IMG/VR virus record: IMGVR_UViG_2513237361_000003
Span: 1 to 23,100 of that record
Reading direction: 5' to 3' (one strand)
Source of the DNA: a virus
Lineage: Duplodnaviria; Heunggongvirae; Uroviricota; Caudoviricetes
Length of the DNA stretch: 23,100 bases
Part shown: piece after piece, positions 12,244 to 18,509 of the stretch
Numbering within the stretch: position 1 is the first letter of the stretch
Layout: every line of letters begins with the position of its first letter
Notes under the pieces: model-generated
What the model saw: the letters and a program-made list of their open reading frames with translations, nothing else
What the model was told of the DNA's origin: nothing
The model's database searches: none
Program-made: the position numbers and the translations under genes

Positions 12244-13650
12244 ATGGCTACTTGGCAAGGATCAAATGGCGGATTGTTGGCTGGTATCGGCGGCGTCAAC
12301 TCAAACGCTCCGAGCGTAAATGACATCGGCAATACGCTTCAGCTTATCAGGCAGAACAATGATATTGAGCGTTCAGGCGCTAACAATGTTGGGCTGACTG
12401 CTTTGCAAGGCCTTTCAGGTATTGCGGGGGTGTTTCAGCAGGAAAAGCAGGCTCAGCGGCAGAAAGAATTTCAGCAGGCATACGCTAATGCTTATGCGTC
12501 TGGTGATCGCGGTGCTTTGCGTCAGTTGGCCACTCAATATCCAGACCAGATTGAATCCGTTCGTAAAGGCATGGGATTCATTGATGAAGAGCAGCGTAAT
12601 TCTATCGGCACCTTAGCGGCTGGCGCACGCCTTGCGTCATCGTCTCCAGAAGCAATGCAATCATGGCTGCAAAACAACGCCAATGAGCTGGCGCGCGTCG
12701 GTGTTGACCCTAATAACGTTGCTCAGATGTATCAGCAGAACCCTTCAGGATTTGGTGAGTTTGTTGATCACCTTGGGATGGCTGCGCTTGGTCCGATTGA
12801 TTACTTCAATGTTCAGGACAAGATGGCTGGTCGTGAAATTGACCGAGGCAGGCTGGCAGAGACAATCCGCAGCAATCAGGCTGGTGAAGCACTTCAGGCG
12901 AGAGGGCAAAACCTTTCCTATCAGTCAGCAATGACTGGGCACAATATCGCAGCACAACGCTTGGCTCTGGATCAGCAAGAGTTCGGGTTTAAGATGCAGC
13001 AAGCGCAGGAAAAGGCTCAGCAGTTGATTAGCGAAGCACCTAAGCTGTCAGTAAACATGGAAAAAGGCATCGAGACGGCTGTAAACAATGCCACAGCATC
13101 ATCAAACTCAGCCAATTCCATGAGTGCGCTTGCTCAACAGTTCAGAGCAGAAAAACCAACGACCGGTTTGTTCGGTAACGCACAGAACATGTTCGCAAAA
13201 CTTACCGGAAGCGATACGACATTGCGTGATTTGCGCATTCGCCAAAATGCCCTTGTTAACAGTCAGGTTCTTAAATTCCTACCTCCCGGCCCAGCAACGG
13301 ATAAAGACGTTGAGATCGTTCGACAGGGTGCGCCAACTGACATGGATAACCCTGAGACGGTCGCAAGATGGCTTGATGCAATGGCAAACCTTGAGCGACG
13401 AAACGCGCAGTTTAATGAGTTTAAAGCTGAGTGGATGAGCGCGAATGGCAACCCTGGACAATCGCGTAATGGCGGTCAGATATTGGGGTTGGATGTTAAA
13501 AAAGGTGAATCATTGGGGAGTGCCGTTAAGCGGTATATGTCAATGAATACTGACGCAGCGCCAGCACAAGATTCGACACCTTCAGGAGAACCACGGAATC
13601 AGGTTGGATCATATACCTCAAAATCAGGCATTCAATTTACGGTGGAATGA
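12244..13650 (+). CDS. ejection protein, P22 gp20-like
   Basis: 468 aa in the gp20 position. Its stop overlaps the next gene start. Confidence 0.8.
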
Positions 13651-15494
13651 TGAAAGTAACTGCAAACGGTAAGACATTTACCTTTCCTGATGGTACGAGC
13701 ACCGAAGATATTGGCACCGCCATTGATGAGTATTTTGCTGGTCAGGCTGTTCAGCAACAAACAGTTAATCAGGCCAATAATGCACCAACACGGGAAGAAC
13801 CATCATTGATGCAACAAGCTGGCGATTGGCTCACTGGTGGTCAAAGTGCAGGGCAAATTGCAGAACAGGCTGGTCGTGGTCTGGTAAACATACCATTTGA
13901 CGTATTGCAGGGCGGCGCAAGTCTGATTAATGCAATCAGTCAGGGGCTTGGTGGACCCAAGGTTTTGGATGATGTTTATCGTCCAGTAGACAGACCGACA
14001 GACCCCTACGCGCAATCCGGTGAAACAATTGGTGGGTATTTAGTTCCAGGAGTTGGAACGGCAGGAAGCATGGCTATTGGATCACTGGCAGAGGCCGCAA
14101 ATCAGAAAGGCGATTTCGCACAAAATGCAGCTAAAAATGCCGGAGTTAACCTTGCCGCTCAGGGTGTTCTTTCCGCAGCAGCAAAGGGAATAGGGCGTGG
14201 AATAACGGCTATAAAAGGTGATATTGCGCCAGAAGTGGCGAAGAAAATTGCCACATCAGAATCGATGGGCGTGACACCAATGACATCTGATGTTATCCCG
14301 CCGAAAAATGCTTTCACTCGCGGCCTAACTCAGGATGCCGAGGGGGCTTTGCTCGGGACAGGCTCAAAGCGAGCGGAGCAATATGCAACGCGTAGTAAGC
14401 TGGTAAGTAATTATTTTGACCGTTTTGGTGAGTACAACCCTGATGATGTGGTGAAATCTCTTACCACCACGTTAAGGGGGCGGAAGGATGCCGCTGGCGC
14501 TGTTATCAATGACGTCACCAATAAAATGGGTAATGCCGCAGTTGATACCACAAATACCATGAATGCTCTGAATACAGCGATCGCAAGACAGGAACGGCTT
14601 GGGACGTCTGCCAATCAAAGCCTGCTTACATCCTTGCGTAACCTACGTGAAGAATTAGCAAACCCTGCAACTGATTTGGATGTTACGTTTGATCTCTTGC
14701 GTCAGCACAGAACAGCATTTAGATCTAATGTTCAGGGAGATGCTATGGTCTTCCCCAACCAGGCAAAAGCAGCTACCAATATGGTAGAGAATGCAATGTC
14801 AAAAGACCTTCGTAACGCAGTTGCTAAAAACCTCGGTGCATCAGACGCAGCAAAATACCTTAAAGCAAATTCCGATTATGCAAACGTTTATAATAAGGTG
14901 CTTAATAAAAACATTGCCAACAAGCTCAACAAGGCAAGCAGTGAAGCCAGTCCTGAACTTATAAATACCGTTGTATTAAGCAGAAAACCATCTGACGTGA
15001 AACGAATCTGGAGCGCACTGGATGATAAGGGGAAAGATGCTATGCGTGCAGCTTACGTCAGCAAAATAGCGGAAAAGGCCGGGGACTCTCCAGCCAAGTT
15101 CATCACTGAAGTTAATAAGCTGAAATCTCAGTCAGGCGGTGAAATTTACAACACTATTTTTTCTGGAAAGCACATGAAAGAGCTTGATGCTCTTCATGAA
15201 GTTCTACAGCAAACAGCAAGGTCAGACACCGCAAATGTAGTAACTCAGACTGGGCAATCGCAAGCCAACAGGATAAGGACGATTGGCGCAACTGCGACCC
15301 TTGGCGTATCAATGGGGCTTGAGGCTGGTTTTGGTGCAATGATGCGCTTGTATGAGTCCAAAGCAGCAAGGAATGCTCTCTTACGTCTGGCAAACACTAA
15401 AACTGGAACGCCAGCTTATGAAAGAGCGCTAAATAATGCTGCAAATGCGATACGCCCTATACTTTCAAGCCAAATTACAGCAGAACAGCAATAA
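13647..15494 (+). CDS. ejection protein, P22 gp16-like
   Basis: 615 aa in the gp16 position, the last gene of the rightward virion block. Confidence 0.8.
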
Positions 15495-15508
15495 AAGATA
15501 AGATATAA

Positions 15509-15994
15509 CTACCTGATATTACTGCTACTGTTGCATGTTACCGTGTTTCCAAATCCTGAATTGCAGTTTGTATATGTGTCAACGCGTGTTGGGTAAGGTT
15601 GAGTTATAACAGGCTGGCGCGCTTTTTGCTCGATCGCTTGCATTGTGTTTACAGCCTGATAATTCAATAAAGCCTGCTGGAATGCTTGGCTTTGTGCTAT
15701 TTGTTGGGCTTGTTCTTGGCTTTGTAATTGAACATAAAGATTCTGAAGCTCAAGTCTTGCCTGTGCGTCACTTATCTTGCCTTCATCGACACCTTGCCCG
15801 AGCATCTTTGCAGCAAGGACATACAGCTTAGGTGTTGGTGCTGATGCCATGCGTGAGTCGTTCTTCACACTGGCATCAAGGCAATTAGCCATATCGCTAA
15901 GCTTTTGATAGCGTTGTTCGCAACTTGCTTGATAGTCACTTACTTTTGCGCATCCAACCAGCAGAAGCGGGATAATTAACAGTGATTTTTTCAT
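15509..15994 (-). CDS. outer-membrane lipoprotein moron, candidate superinfection-exclusion or lysogenic-conversion protein
   Basis: AAGGAG 9 nt upstream of an ATG giving MKKSLLIIPLLLVGC. Lipobox LVGC with Ala at +2 (outer-membrane sorting rule). Mature part is Gln-rich and helical with several Cys. Convergent with gp16, occupying the slot P22 uses for sieA. Confidence 0.7.
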   Translation of the reverse strand: MKKSLLIIPLLLVGCAKVSDYQASCEQRYQKLSDMANCLDASVKNDSRMASAPTPKLYVLAAKMLGQGVDEGKISDAQARLELQNLYVQLQSQEQAQQIAQSQAFQQALLNYQAVNTMQAIEQKARQPVITQPYPTRVDTYTNCNSGFGNTVTCNSSSNIR

Positions 15995-16064
15995 ATGGTT
16001 AACTCTCCTTAGTTTTTCACAGGATATCATGAAGGCAATGCCATTTTAGCCGGAAACTAGATTT

Positions 16065-16331
16065 CTATGTTTCCTTTTTATTATTGCTATACATGGTCTT
16101 AAGCGTATCAAAGACAATTTTCTTAACCATATCAGATTGTTGTTCTGCCATACGCTCTGCATCGTCAATGTAAACTGATGCAGAGCTTTGTTTAGCCAAT
16201 GATTCTTCAATCGCTGCAATTATCTCTGAGTTCAGCGACCTGTTATTCATCTTCGCACGCTGCTTAATTTTCGCGTGGAGTTCATGCGGAAGTCTCAAGT
16301 GAAACTGCGCCTCGTCGTATTTGCTGTACAT
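16065..16331 (-). CDS. mnt: Mnt-like ribbon-helix-helix repressor (Arc/MetJ family)
   Basis: C-terminal DAERMAEQQSDMVKKIVFDTLKTMY and N-terminal FHLRLPHELHAKIKQRAKMNNRSLNSEI align with P22 Mnt as recalled. Start placed at the Met of MYSKY (88 aa); an upstream ATG at 16364 is possible. Confidence 0.8.
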   Translation of the reverse strand: MYSKYDEAQFHLRLPHELHAKIKQRAKMNNRSLNSEIIAAIEESLAKQSSASVYIDDAERMAEQQSDMVKKIVFDTLKTMYSNNKKET

Positions 16332-16392
16332 CCTTGATGCCTCACCAGTTGGGTGGAATGGCATCGTAACCTACTGGATAAACACTCAATAG

Positions 16393-16405
16393 TACCATTT
16401 TGGTA
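16393..16405. promoter_or_regulatory. candidate operator: inverted repeat TACCA-TTT-TGGTA in the mnt/tailspike divergent region
   Basis: Perfect 5-bp inverted repeat with a 3-bp spacer, in the 99-bp gap between the mnt start and the tailspike start. The P22 Omnt sequence itself is not present. Confidence 0.25.
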
Positions 16406-16463
16406 TGTAATGAATCTCAATCATATCCACGCTGAGTCTATTACTTGCATTTGGAGCCCTTAA

Positions 16464-18509
16464 ATGTCAGAGACGTCACAGTCAATTCTTGTAAATATGC
16501 CAATGAGTCTGTACACAGCATCGCGTTCATTCAAAGCTATTTCAAATGGTAAAATATATGTAGGTATTCCTGACACAGACCCTGTATATCCTGAAAATCA
16601 GGTTCCAGTATATATCGTTAATGAGAGTGGAAATAAGATACAGATTCCACAACCGATTGTTATAAACTCCGGTGGTCATCCTGTTTATAATGGTCAAATA
16701 ATAAATAAAATAATTACAGATGAACAATATAGTCTTGCTGTTTACGACTCTTATGGTTCTCAGGAATATTATTTTGACAATGTGGTAAGGTATGATCCTG
16801 AAGCATTAATGCAATTATTGGCTGGCAAGGAAGGTTATTCGTACATAGGGGAGTTGCAATCAGCTGCTGACTTCTTTGGTCTTGTTAAAAACGACGGCGC
16901 TCGTGTAAAACTACGTAGTTGGTATGCTGGTTGGAGTGTAACTACATATGGAAAGCCAAAAGGTGGTGGTGAGTTTATCTTCCAGGCTAATGTTCCGAAA
17001 GCTAAGCATGACGGCTGCATATACTTCAGCCCGACCGTGCCTTACAGCACAAATCTTTCATCATATGTTACTGGTCAGGGTGAAACTGATCCTACCGGGA
17101 GTGGCGTGTGGGTGAGAGATATTGGTGATGCCACACATATTCATACTGATTGGGCTGGTATTGGAGATGGATCAACATCCACATCTTCATCCGCGCATAG
17201 TGATGCATTACAAAATGTCTTCAATGCAGCGGCAGCCTTAGGTAAACATGTTCAGCTTGGGTATGGGTTTATCCACTTAGAAAAAGCTGTGAGTATGCCA
17301 GCTTTTTTTGACAATACGTCAGCCATGCCGCGGATTGAAGGATACGGCATAAACAGCAGTTACTTTATATGCACCCCGTTGGGTACTGATACATATAACA
17401 TCACGTGCATGTTGGATAGTTTTACCCAAACTTGGGGTATGAAAGACTTCCAGATTCGAGAGAAAGGCCTTACCAAAACTGGCTATTTAATGAAGTTGGG
17501 CCGCCTGACAGGGGCAGTAATTGAGCGTGTCAAATGGGCGGGGGGATACCAACAACTTCTTGCGCAAAGCGTACTGTCATGCACATGGATTGAGCCATGC
17601 TGGTTTAGTGGCTATCGTGGGGCGAAGTTTGAGGCAGGGGGAACGGTTGGTTCTGGTTATGCCAACCCTAACGCTAACAGATTCATTCGCCCACAGATTC
17701 TTACTATGGAAAACCAGGGTTTATGGATAGTTAACGCTACACAATTCCAAATTGATGGCGGTAGCATTGAAGGGTGTGGTTCTCCGGGGGACACTACATT
17801 CCGTGGGTTCTACGTGCAGGGTGGAGGTTCTGACGGCACCGTCGGGTTAGTAGTAGATGGGTTGTATGTGGAAACTGTTAGTGGATACCCGTTCTACATA
17901 ACCCATAGCAACAACCGCTCTATCAAGCATGTTATTTCAAATAGTAACTTCAACAATAACGATACGCAGTATCCTGTTAGCCAAGTAATAGTTCTTGGTG
18001 GTAATTATAGTTACCCGTCAGGGGTAACTATGACTCTGGAGATGCGTGGTAATACCTGCCTTGGGGTTGGCTATACGGCAAGCGCATCGAGGCCAGATGT
18101 TAGTATAAGTGGATATTCCGCCAATGAGCAGGCTATTTTTATCGATTATGATAACTTATGGATCCCATCACAATCACCGGTTGTGGATGCTACTGTTAAA
18201 TGGAAAAGCTCTCCTGACTTCGCTTTTGGTGTGAGCGTTGTTGGTGCGACTGGAGCAATGGGAAACAGGAGAAATATACTCAGTGTTACAAGGGGAGCGA
18301 CTGGGGTTTATACAGTAAATGCAAATCATGATATAGCAAACGTGGCTGTAGAAATAACTACTGTAGGGGTACCAGGATACGGAATAATAGGTGGTTATCC
18401 TACCGCAAACTCATTCGTTGTAAGGATGTACAATACTGCAGGCGCTCCCACTGACATAGATTTCATAGCATTAGGAAAAGACTATAGAGCAAGATTTAAC
18501 GCTACATAA
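16464..18509 (+). CDS. tailspike protein: P22-type N-terminal head-binding domain plus a distinct receptor-binding domain
   Basis: GGAG 8 nt before the ATG. Residues about 15-110 (SRSFKA..NGKIYVG..DTDPV.P.NQ.PVY..NE.G...) match the conserved head-binding domain of P22, Sf6 and HK620 tailspikes. The remaining ~570 aa are Gly/Asn/Ser/Thr-rich like a beta-helix but not recognisably P22's, and the DNA is more AT-rich. Confidence 0.9.
   Translation: MSETSQSILVNMPMSLYTASRSFKAISNGKIYVGIPDTDPVYPENQVPVYIVNESGNKIQIPQPIVINSGGHPVYNGQIINKIITDEQYSLAVYDSYGSQEYYFDNVVRYDPEALMQLLAGKEGYSYIGELQSAADFFGLVKNDGARVKLRSWYAGWSVTTYGKPKGGGEFIFQANVPKAKHDGCIYFSPTVPYSTNLSSYVTGQGETDPTGSGVWVRDIGDATHIHTDWAGIGDGSTSTSSSAHSDALQNVFNAAAALGKHVQLGYGFIHLEKAVSMPAFFDNTSAMPRIEGYGINSSYFICTPLGTDTYNITCMLDSFTQTWGMKDFQIREKGLTKTGYLMKLGRLTGAVIERVKWAGGYQQLLAQSVLSCTWIEPCWFSGYRGAKFEAGGTVGSGYANPNANRFIRPQILTMENQGLWIVNATQFQIDGGSIEGCGSPGDTTFRGFYVQGGGSDGTVGLVVDGLYVETVSGYPFYITHSNNRSIKHVISNSNFNNNDTQYPVSQVIVLGGNYSYPSGVTMTLEMRGNTCLGVGYTASASRPDVSISGYSANEQAIFIDYDNLWIPSQSPVVDATVKWKSSPDFAFGVSVVGATGAMGNRRNILSVTRGATGVYTVNANHDIANVAVEITTVGVPGYGIIGGYPTANSFVVRMYNTAGAPTDIDFIALGKDYRARFNAT

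What the first reader, a model, noticed from the sequence alone, without database searches (positions are those of the whole stretch)
15509..15994. Outer-membrane lipoprotein moron in the sieA slot, antisense to the late operon
Between the last ejection gene and the tailspike, P22 carries sieA. This prophage instead has a 161-aa lipoprotein on the opposite strand (MKKSLLIIPLLLVGC, Ala at +2, so predicted outer-membrane) with a Gln-rich helical mature domain and a Cys-containing C-terminus. It lies 70 bp downstream of mnt and is probably co-transcribed with it in the lysogen. Position and topology suggest a lysogen-expressed envelope protein, for example one that blocks a secondary receptor or DNA delivery of incoming phage. 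I do not recognise its family.
Basis: partly seen in the sequence, partly recalled or inferred. Interest (0 to 1): 0.68.

Follow-up and report, generated by a model that had tools for sequence, protein, structure and literature searches.

The report
Prophage lipoprotein replacing sieA
A P22-like prophage of E. coli carries, exactly where phage P22 keeps its superinfection-exclusion gene sieA, a conserved outer-membrane lipoprotein gene of an uncharacterised family that lysogens express; it probably protects or remodels the cell envelope, but nobody has tested what it does.

Summary
Window 15509-15994 (-) encodes a 161-aa lipoprotein precursor (lipobox LVGC, Ala at +2), 70 bp downstream of mnt. 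It converges on the last ejection gene, 14 bp from it. The gene is real: dN/dS is 0.04, it occurs in 186 of 5426 complete E. coli genomes, and it holds the same position in Salmonella, Yersinia, Morganella, Proteus and Pectobacterium P22-like prophages.

It belongs to phrog_6067 (function unknown). There is no Pfam, NCBIfam, PADLOC or PDB match. A confident model of a relative shows a four-helix bundle plus a C-terminal disulfide hairpin, with only generic fold matches.

Three things are new. In some prophages the P22 sieA promoter and leader run at 91-95% identity up to 10 nt before the lipoprotein ATG, so this is an ORF-for-ORF swap with sieA. The window keeps only the 29-nt leader. SieA and the lipoprotein never co-occur in about 95 loci. 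Published RNA-seq of a 97.5%-identical ortholog (prophage Gally, strain LF82) shows lysogen expression independent of mnt and induction in macrophages.

Function is inferred, not shown. The best guess is an outer-membrane-side block to phage entry (about 0.42). The main rival is a host-envelope fitness factor. Co-transcription with mnt is possible in this window but is not a general feature.

The parts
15509..15994 (-). Lipoprotein gene, 161-aa precursor. Signal peptide 1-14, lipobox LVGC, lipidated Cys15, Ala+2. Helical domain about 18-125. Pro-rich linker. C-terminal Cys144-Cys154 loop.
   Evidence: ORF and sequence; phrog_6067 at E=1.6e-110; alignment A1 with invariant Cys; AF2 models; dN/dS 0.04
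15995..16064 (-). 70-bp mnt-lipoprotein spacer. It holds the Shine-Dalgarno AAGGAG and the 29-nt leader TTCATGATATCCTGTGAAAAACTAAGGAG (about 16005-16033), which is homologous to the P22 sieA and HK620 hkcB leaders. It also holds part of a hairpin.
   Evidence: Alignment A4; blastn to 64 P22-like phages, where the matched feature is annotated 'promoter' in AF527608; HK620; fold
16065..16331 (-). mnt (Arc/Mnt ribbon-helix-helix repressor, 88 aa). It lies upstream on the same strand and is a possible source of read-through transcription.
   Evidence: Pfam Arc 1.1e-14 and Repressor_Mnt 1.2e-12; RefSeq 'Arc family DNA-binding protein'
16046..16080 (+). Hairpin overlapping the mnt stop codon. On the + strand it is followed by TTTTTATTATT, which is terminator-like for rightward transcription. 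On the - strand it has no U-tract.
   Evidence: RNA folds; sequence
13647..15494 (+). Gene 16-type ejection (DNA transfer) protein. It is the last gene of the ejection-protein operon and converges on the lipoprotein gene, with stop codons 14 bp apart.
   Evidence: phrog_770 at E=2e-279; ORF list
16464..18509 (+). Tailspike. It forms the right border of the 'ant moron' slot.
   Evidence: Pfam Head_binding 5.6e-43

Best explanation
The gene is a prophage accessory ('moron') gene. It encodes a lipoprotein anchored in the inner leaflet of the outer membrane and facing the periplasm. It occupies the expression slot that P22 uses for sieA.

Inferred pathway from the sequence, using established rules:
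- Sec export.
- Lipidation at Cys15.
- Lol sorting to the outer membrane, because +2 is Ala and not Asp.
- Two periplasmic disulfides, C25-C38 and C144-C154.

Inferred shape: a four-helix bundle sits directly under the membrane. A long Gln-rich fourth helix and a Pro-rich linker project a small disulfide-closed beta-hairpin deep into the periplasm.

Expression: the gene is transcribed leftward in the lysogen. This is shown for a 97.5%-identical ortholog. In this window the transcript would come from the remnant sieA-type leader and/or read-through from mnt. Convergent late transcription should silence it during lytic growth.

Proposed function (inference from context only): it interferes with entry of superinfecting phages at the outer-membrane or periplasmic stage. 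It could intercept the gp7/gp20 ejection-protein conduit, or lock an outer-membrane protein used as a secondary receptor. It would be the outer-membrane-side counterpart of the inner-membrane protein SieA.
For: Anatomy:
- Lipobox and +2 Ala.
- No transmembrane segment in the mature part.
- Four Cys are invariant across 34 close and 38 distant relatives.
- The AF2 model of a relative has pLDDT 91.5, with four helices and a C-terminal hairpin.

Slot:
- P22 has sieA here, with its own promoter.
- The window's 29-nt leader matches the P22 sieA leader at 25 of 29 positions and the HK620 hkcB leader at 93%.
- In L020, L049 and L075, 0.7-1.6 kb of P22 DNA including PsieA runs at 91-95.5% identity up to 10 nt before the lipoprotein ATG.
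- 85 bp upstream of sieA suffices for exclusion in single copy (PMC10883804).
- About 95 lipoprotein loci contain no SieA type A, no SieA type B and no hkcB.

Position: conserved next to gene 16 in Morganella, Yersinia, Pectobacterium, Proteus and Salmonella prophages.

Expression: Gally GALLYPH_13 reads 70 against a prophage median of 15.6 in LB, while mnt reads 13. Log2 values reach 10.3 in macrophages, and macrophage 6 h versus LB gives log2FC 2.55 at q=4.7e-27 (PMC9928086 S1/S4).

Selection: dN/dS 0.04. The gene stays intact in a prophage that has lost its head genes.

Context of distant relatives: beside a type IIG restriction-modification enzyme and a PADLOC candidate defence gene.
Against: - No experiment links any member of this family to phage resistance.
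- It matches no PADLOC model.
- It has no similarity to Cor, Llp-like, Bor, TraT or SieA.
- Very low dN/dS is not what a direct arms race with fast-evolving ejection proteins predicts. Near-identical lipoproteins also sit next to different gene-16 types.
- Some distant relatives lie in ordinary chromosomal contexts, for example next to PHB genes.
- Strong induction in macrophages fits a host-fitness role equally well.
- In this window the promoter-proximal half of PsieA is missing, so expression here is not demonstrated.
Confidence: 0.42

Rival explanations
1. It is a lysogenic-conversion factor that serves host envelope physiology rather than phage exclusion. Possible roles are stress, serum or intracellular survival, or envelope signalling or tethering through the long periplasmic stalk and C-terminal hairpin, in the manner of Bor, Lpp or RcsF-type lipoproteins.
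For: - Expression rises from log2 about 6.1 in LB to about 8 in B1/B6 samples and 10.3 in macrophages at 1 h.
- Strong purifying selection.
- Retained in a degraded prophage.
- Relatives occur outside phages, next to housekeeping genes.
- The wider family has 252 clusters across Proteobacteria.
Against: - Deleting the whole Gally prophage did not change LF82 survival in macrophages (PMC9928086).
- In Enterobacterales the gene is confined to P22-like prophages at the sieA slot and is essentially absent from plasmids.
- It replaces sieA and hkcB rather than adding to them.
Confidence: 0.3
2. It has a lytic-cycle role, for example as a spanin-like lysis component, or as a factor that stops progeny virions from ejecting DNA into debris.
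For: It is an outer-membrane lipoprotein like Rz1 o-spanins. T5 Llp serves both exclusion and progeny protection (general knowledge).
Against: - It is transcribed opposite to the late operon and is expressed while late genes are silent.
- Gally has its own holin, lysin and Rz genes.
- No Rz1 or spanin profile matches.
- It has no C-terminal membrane anchor.
Confidence: 0.05
3. It is a chance or decaying ORF with no function.
For: Annotated only as 'hypothetical protein'.
Against: - dN/dS 0.04 at dS up to 0.58.
- Invariant Cys pattern across 250 or more clusters.
- Transcribed in a lysogen.
- The exact protein occurs on at least 1000 contigs.
Confidence: 0.01

Closest known systems
P22 SieA (superinfection exclusion; types A, B, C)
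   Same: Same genomic slot, convergent with gene 16. Same leader and Shine-Dalgarno module, and in some prophages the same PsieA promoter. Similar size (161 versus 164 aa). Expressed from the prophage. The two are mutually exclusive in the loci sampled.
   Different: SieA is a polytopic inner-membrane protein with three transmembrane helices (PMC10883804). This protein is a lipid-anchored soluble domain predicted to sit at the outer membrane. There is no sequence similarity.
Cor (phi80/N15/HK022) and T5 Llp: phage lipoproteins that inactivate the FhuA receptor
   Same: Small phage-encoded outer-membrane lipoproteins with disulfides. They are made to block superinfection from the periplasmic side of the outer membrane (general knowledge).
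   Different: No homology. NCBIfam lamb_exclu_cor and phrog_1119 match only the signal peptide, at E 0.035-0.07. This protein is twice as long, helical, and carried by short-tailed O-antigen-specific phages that do not use FhuA.
HK620 hkcB (phrog_5962) and other 'ant moron' cargo genes
   Same: An alternative cargo at the identical junction, behind the same leader. The region is known to be in rapid flux, with functions known only for P22 (PMC2629481).
   Different: hkcB is a 109-aa protein with an N-terminal membrane helix. It is unrelated in sequence and also uncharacterised.
Lambda Bor / Lpp-type helical outer-membrane lipoproteins
   Same: A prophage-expressed outer-membrane lipoprotein (Bor), or an outer-membrane-anchored helical rod reaching into the periplasm (Lpp).
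   Different: No Pfam or NCBIfam match to Bor or to Lpp/OprI (only E=0.024 for one distant relative). It has a four-helix bundle plus a Cys hairpin, not a trimeric coiled coil, and it lacks a C-terminal Lys.

Membership tests
phrog_6067 (phage protein family, function unknown) | Full-length profile match | tested here: met
   E=1.6e-110, residues 1-161 on profile positions 1-161 of 161. Distant relatives also match.
Bacterial lipoprotein (Lgt/LspA substrate), outer-membrane sorted | Signal peptide with lipobox [LVI][ASTVI][GAS]C, and a +2 residue that is not Asp | tested here: met
   MKK-SLLIIPLL-LVGC, then A at +2. Across 140 relatives +2 is A, T, S, Q or V, and never D in the list examined. 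Actual lipidation and localisation cannot be tested here.
Wider Cys4 lipoprotein family defined here | Lipobox Cys; Cys at +10 (CE) and +23; the KLY..A..L / DA[RK].ELQ.LYV helices; a C-terminal C-x8-9-C-x-[ST]-[YR] end | tested here: met
   252 clusters at E<1e-3; Cys pattern; alignments A1 and A2. The window protein has C15, C25, C38, C144 and C154.
SieA (P22 types A/B) | Sequence homology, three transmembrane helices, and the FxRYPxEAxxFNK motif | tested here: not met
   tblastn with P22 and HS1 SieA gives no hit at E<=1 in the window or in any lipoprotein locus. The mature protein has no hydrophobic segment.
SieA (functional class: exclusion of P22-like phages) | Blocks DNA entry when expressed alone | not testable with these tools
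   Needs plating and K+ efflux assays as in PMC10883804.
Cor exclusion lipoprotein (NF047972 / phrog_1119) | Profile match beyond the signal peptide | tested here: not met
   No NCBIfam hit. The phrog_1119 match at E=0.035 covers residues 1-31 only.
Bor, TraT, Rz1/o-spanin | Pfam family match | tested here: not met
   The Pfam scan at E<=1 returned only DUF2802 at E=0.39.
Known anti-phage defence systems (PADLOC) | Match to a PADLOC-DB model | tested here: not met
   0 families.
Moron (independently expressed insert in a phage operon) | Variable presence at a fixed site, plus transcription in the lysogen while the flanking late genes are silent | tested here: met
   Slot variation. RNA-seq of the ortholog reads 70 against 12-15 for the flanking ejection genes. 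Not measured for this exact prophage.

The most novel reading that the evidence does not exclude
The protein is the first outer-membrane-anchored exclusion factor against short-tailed phages. It would be a periplasmic rod and hairpin that intercepts the ejection-protein conduit (gp7/gp20) or the tail needle just under the outer membrane. The 250-cluster Cys4 lipoprotein family it belongs to would then be a widespread, unrecognised envelope-level anti-phage family in Proteobacteria.
Probability: 0.2. Interest if true: 0.8.

Novelty: new variant of a known kind. Interest (0 to 1): 0.55.

Why it matters
P22-like prophages are common in E. coli, Salmonella and their relatives. How lysogens keep out related short-tailed phages is known only for SieA, which acts at the inner membrane. 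This work identifies a conserved lipoprotein that lysogens express and that sits behind the very same promoter and leader in place of sieA. About 3.4% of complete E. coli genomes carry it, including EHEC O26 and the Crohn's-associated strain LF82. That gives a concrete, easily tested candidate for a second exclusion mechanism acting on the outer-membrane side. It also flags an uncharacterised lipoprotein fold family. If the protein is instead a host-fitness factor, its 18-fold rise in macrophages would make it relevant to the biology of adherent-invasive E. coli.

Tried and rejected
- Sequence families: Pfam, NCBIfam and PADLOC gave nothing significant. NF037980 GspK at 18.9 bits (cut-off 130) is a Gln-rich-helix artefact, which explains one 'GspK' database name.
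- Solved structures by sequence: nothing.
- Related loci: the first genome-contig scan with the broad alignment failed for lack of a conserved stretch. The retry found only 2 loci.
- Second homolog search: the profile search saturated and gave 7 proteins.
- Lytic-transglycosylase inhibitor idea: I considered that the protein might inhibit a lytic-transglycosylase domain in gene 16. The window's gp16 has no Pfam SLT domain, so I dropped it.
- DegS/BAM ligand idea: I considered that a C-terminal aromatic residue might mimic an OMP signal. The window protein ends in ...SSNIR, so this is not general.
- Rfam: no RNA family in the window.
- Promoter scan: no sigma-70 consensus in the 70-bp spacer.
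- Literature: searches for accession numbers, the PHROG id or similar exclusion lipoproteins found no characterisation. Hofer et al. 1995, which mapped PsieA, is not held.

Full report
**1. The observation**

Window 15509-15994 on the minus strand is an ORF of 161 codons plus a stop. It begins MKKSLLIIPLLLVGC and has AAGGAG 8 nt upstream of the ATG. The lipobox is L-V-G-C and the +2 residue is Ala. The mature 146 residues contain no hydrophobic segment and are 14.4% Gln, with 15 of 48 residues Gln in 84-131. Cys residues are at 25, 38, 144 and 154.

The upstream gene on the same strand (16065-16331) is an Arc/Mnt repressor (Pfam Arc 1.1e-14, Repressor_Mnt 1.2e-12). The gap to it is exactly 70 bp.

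The surrounding genes are:
- gp7 (PF25688).
- gp20 (PF16928).
- A gene 16-type DNA transfer protein (phrog_770, E=2e-279), ending 14 bp from the lipoprotein stop.
- A Head_binding tailspike.
- gtrA, gtrB and a gtrC-like gene.
- The host gene dacD.

The element is therefore a P22-like prophage, and the gene lies in what Villafane et al. called the 'ant moron' between genes 16 and 9 (PMC2629481). P22 has sieA at this spot.

**2. It is a real, selected gene**

- It matches phrog_6067 (function unknown) end to end at E=1.6e-110.
- A database search found 94 clusters, all from Enterobacterales and almost all named 'hypothetical protein'.
- The exact protein is on at least 1000 contigs, and one UniRef entry calls it 'Lipoprotein'.
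- It occurs in 186 of 5426 complete E. coli genomes, always on the chromosome. It is essentially absent from plasmids.
- Against the Gally and VSe13 orthologs, dN/dS is 0.04 at dS 0.25 and 0.58.

**3. Family and fold**

Pfam, NCBIfam, PADLOC and PDB sequence searches give nothing.

An exhaustive profile search finds 252 clusters at 50% identity. They share one architecture:
- A lipobox Cys.
- Cys at +10 (in 'CE') and at +23.
- Conserved helices (KLY.L.A..L, DA[RK].ELQ.LYV).
- A linker of variable length.
- A C-terminal C-x8-9-C-x-[ST]-[YR] end.

These relatives also hit only phrog_6067.

**4. The slot, at nucleotide resolution**

The 29 nt before the Shine-Dalgarno in the window read TTCATGATATCCTGTGAAAAACTAAGGAG. 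They match the P22 sieA leader at 25 of 29 positions and the leader of HK620 hkcB at 93%. The same element sits upstream of sieA in about 64 Salmonella P22-like phages, where one record annotates it as promoter.

In other lipoprotein-bearing prophages (L020, L049, L075), 0.7-1.6 kb of P22-type DNA runs at 91-95.5% identity up to 10 nt before the lipoprotein ATG. That stretch includes the annotated PsieA promoter. The end point corresponds to 6 nt before the sieA GTG in P22. Homology resumes inside gene 16. This is an ORF-for-ORF replacement of sieA.

Leavitt et al. showed that 85 bp upstream of sieA is enough for strong exclusion from a single copy (PMC10883804).

About 95 lipoprotein loci contain no SieA type A (P22), no SieA type B (E. 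coli HS) and no hkcB.

The same ORF is found behind at least six unrelated 5' flanks.

Its position immediately convergent with gene 16 is kept in Morganella, Yersinia ruckeri, Pectobacterium, Proteus and Salmonella prophages. mnt may be present or absent in these.

**5. Expression**

Phage Gally of E. coli LF82 encodes a 97.5%-identical protein, GALLYPH_13. Published RNA-seq (PMC9928086, tables S1 and S4) gives the following:

| Measure | GALLYPH_13 | Comparison |
|---|---|---|
| Normalised reads, overnight LB | 70 | prophage median 15.6; flanking ejection genes 12-14; mnt 13 |
| Rank in the prophage | second most expressed gene | after the C2 repressor |
| Authors' moron cut-off | missed | cut-off is 5-fold (78) |
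| log2 values, B1/B6 samples | about 8 | |
| log2 values, macrophages 1 h | 10.3 | |
| log2 values, macrophages 6 h | 8.6 | |
| log2FC, macrophage 6 h versus LB | 2.55 | q=4.7e-27 |

In Gally an opposite-strand gene separates the lipoprotein from mnt, so the lipoprotein has its own promoter there.

In this window the promoter-proximal half of PsieA is replaced by the 3' end of mnt. The hairpin at the mnt stop has no U-tract on the minus strand, so read-through from mnt is plausible. On the plus strand the same hairpin is followed by TTTTTATTATT. No sigma-70 consensus was found in the spacer. Expression of this exact copy is therefore likely but not shown.

**6. Mechanism**

Shown here:
- The gene's anatomy.
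- Its slot.
- Lysogen expression of an ortholog.
- Purifying selection.

Following from established rules:
- Export and lipidation.
- Sorting to the outer membrane with Ala at +2.
- Disulfide formation in the periplasm.

Inferred:
- The protein acts on incoming phages at the outer-membrane or periplasmic stage. It could intercept the ejection-protein conduit or lock an outer-membrane protein. It would complement O-antigen modification by the neighbouring gtr genes and replace the inner-membrane block given by SieA.

Weak support for this inference:
- Distant relatives lie beside a type IIG restriction enzyme and beside a PADLOC candidate gene plus a BrnTA toxin-antitoxin pair.

Against the inference:
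- There are no functional data.
- There is no link to a known defence family.
- dN/dS is very low.
- Near-identical lipoproteins sit next to different gene-16 types.
- Some relatives have chromosomal neighbours unrelated to phages.
- The macrophage induction fits a host-fitness role.

However, deleting the whole Gally prophage did not change LF82 survival in macrophages. I put the exclusion reading at about 0.42 and the host-fitness reading at about 0.30. A lytic or spanin role is unlikely, because the gene is on the opposite strand to the late operon, it is expressed when late genes are silent, and Gally has its own Rz.

**7. Comparison and novelty**

In position and probably in purpose the gene resembles sieA. 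In protein type it resembles the Cor and Llp exclusion lipoproteins. It fails the membership tests for all of these and for Bor, TraT and Rz1.

The region is known to be a fast-changing moron site. The family exists in databases only as 'hypothetical' or phrog_6067. I found no paper that describes it.

I rate it a new variant of a known kind: a prophage-expressed envelope lipoprotein, but from an uncharacterised family, in a phage group where only an inner-membrane exclusion protein is known. Interest is moderate (0.55). The hypothesis is concrete and cheap to test, the gene is widespread, and the promoter-level swap with sieA is a clean piece of evidence. The function itself remains unproven.

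Noticed in passing
L003 4447-4866 (-) (phage Gally); also 9-11 IMG/VR loci: A second, unrelated lipoprotein gene (139 aa, MKRIIGVVAGAILLSGC..., phrog_6823, function unknown) lies divergent from the phrog_6067 lipoprotein. In LF82 RNA-seq it is expressed even more strongly (log2 9.4-11 outside LB). It is absent from this window.
   Followed up: partly
window 16046-16080: A 9-bp hairpin overlaps the mnt stop codon. On the + strand it is followed by TTTTTATTATT. It looks like a terminator for rightward (late-direction) transcription just before mnt and the tailspike, and it may tune tailspike expression as proposed for P22's ant moron.
   Followed up: partly
window 16065-16463: mnt is present but arc and ant are absent. 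An orphan Mnt repressor sits divergent from the tailspike gene. What it represses here is unclear.
   Followed up: no
window 15494-15509: The stop codons of gene 16 and of the lipoprotein gene are 14 bp apart and convergent, with no terminator between them. Late and lysogenic transcripts must therefore overlap as antisense.
   Followed up: no
window ~16005-16016; L088, L089, L103: The leader 'AAAACTAAGGAG' directly before the start codon is shared by P22 sieA (type A), E. coli HS sieA (type B), HK620 hkcB and this lipoprotein. It appears to be a common junction module for cargo exchange.
   Followed up: partly
L001 (E. coli LR-28, NZ_AP027512.1 1894248-1919359): This prophage has lost all head and tail genes, with an antiterminator pseudogene joined to a truncated gene 16. 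It keeps an identical, intact lipoprotein gene plus mnt, the tailspike and gtr genes.
   Followed up: no
L084 7735-11214; L097 4467-5078 and 5887-6386: Distant family members lie near a type IIG restriction-methyltransferase (PADLOC E=0), and near PADLOC candidate PDC-S52 plus a BrnT/BrnA toxin-antitoxin pair next to an integrase.
   Followed up: partly
window 18546-21134 (-): This is a gtrA, gtrB (GT2) and 437-aa gtrC-like (phrog_22908, no Pfam) O-antigen modification cluster at the prophage end. The host gene dacD follows from 21928.
   Followed up: partly
window 15995-16030: An in-frame upstream ATG at 16030 would add 12 residues (MISCEKLRRVNH). Some records, such as Gally, annotate such a longer form. 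The extension differs or is absent between loci, so the 161-aa start is preferred.
   Followed up: yes
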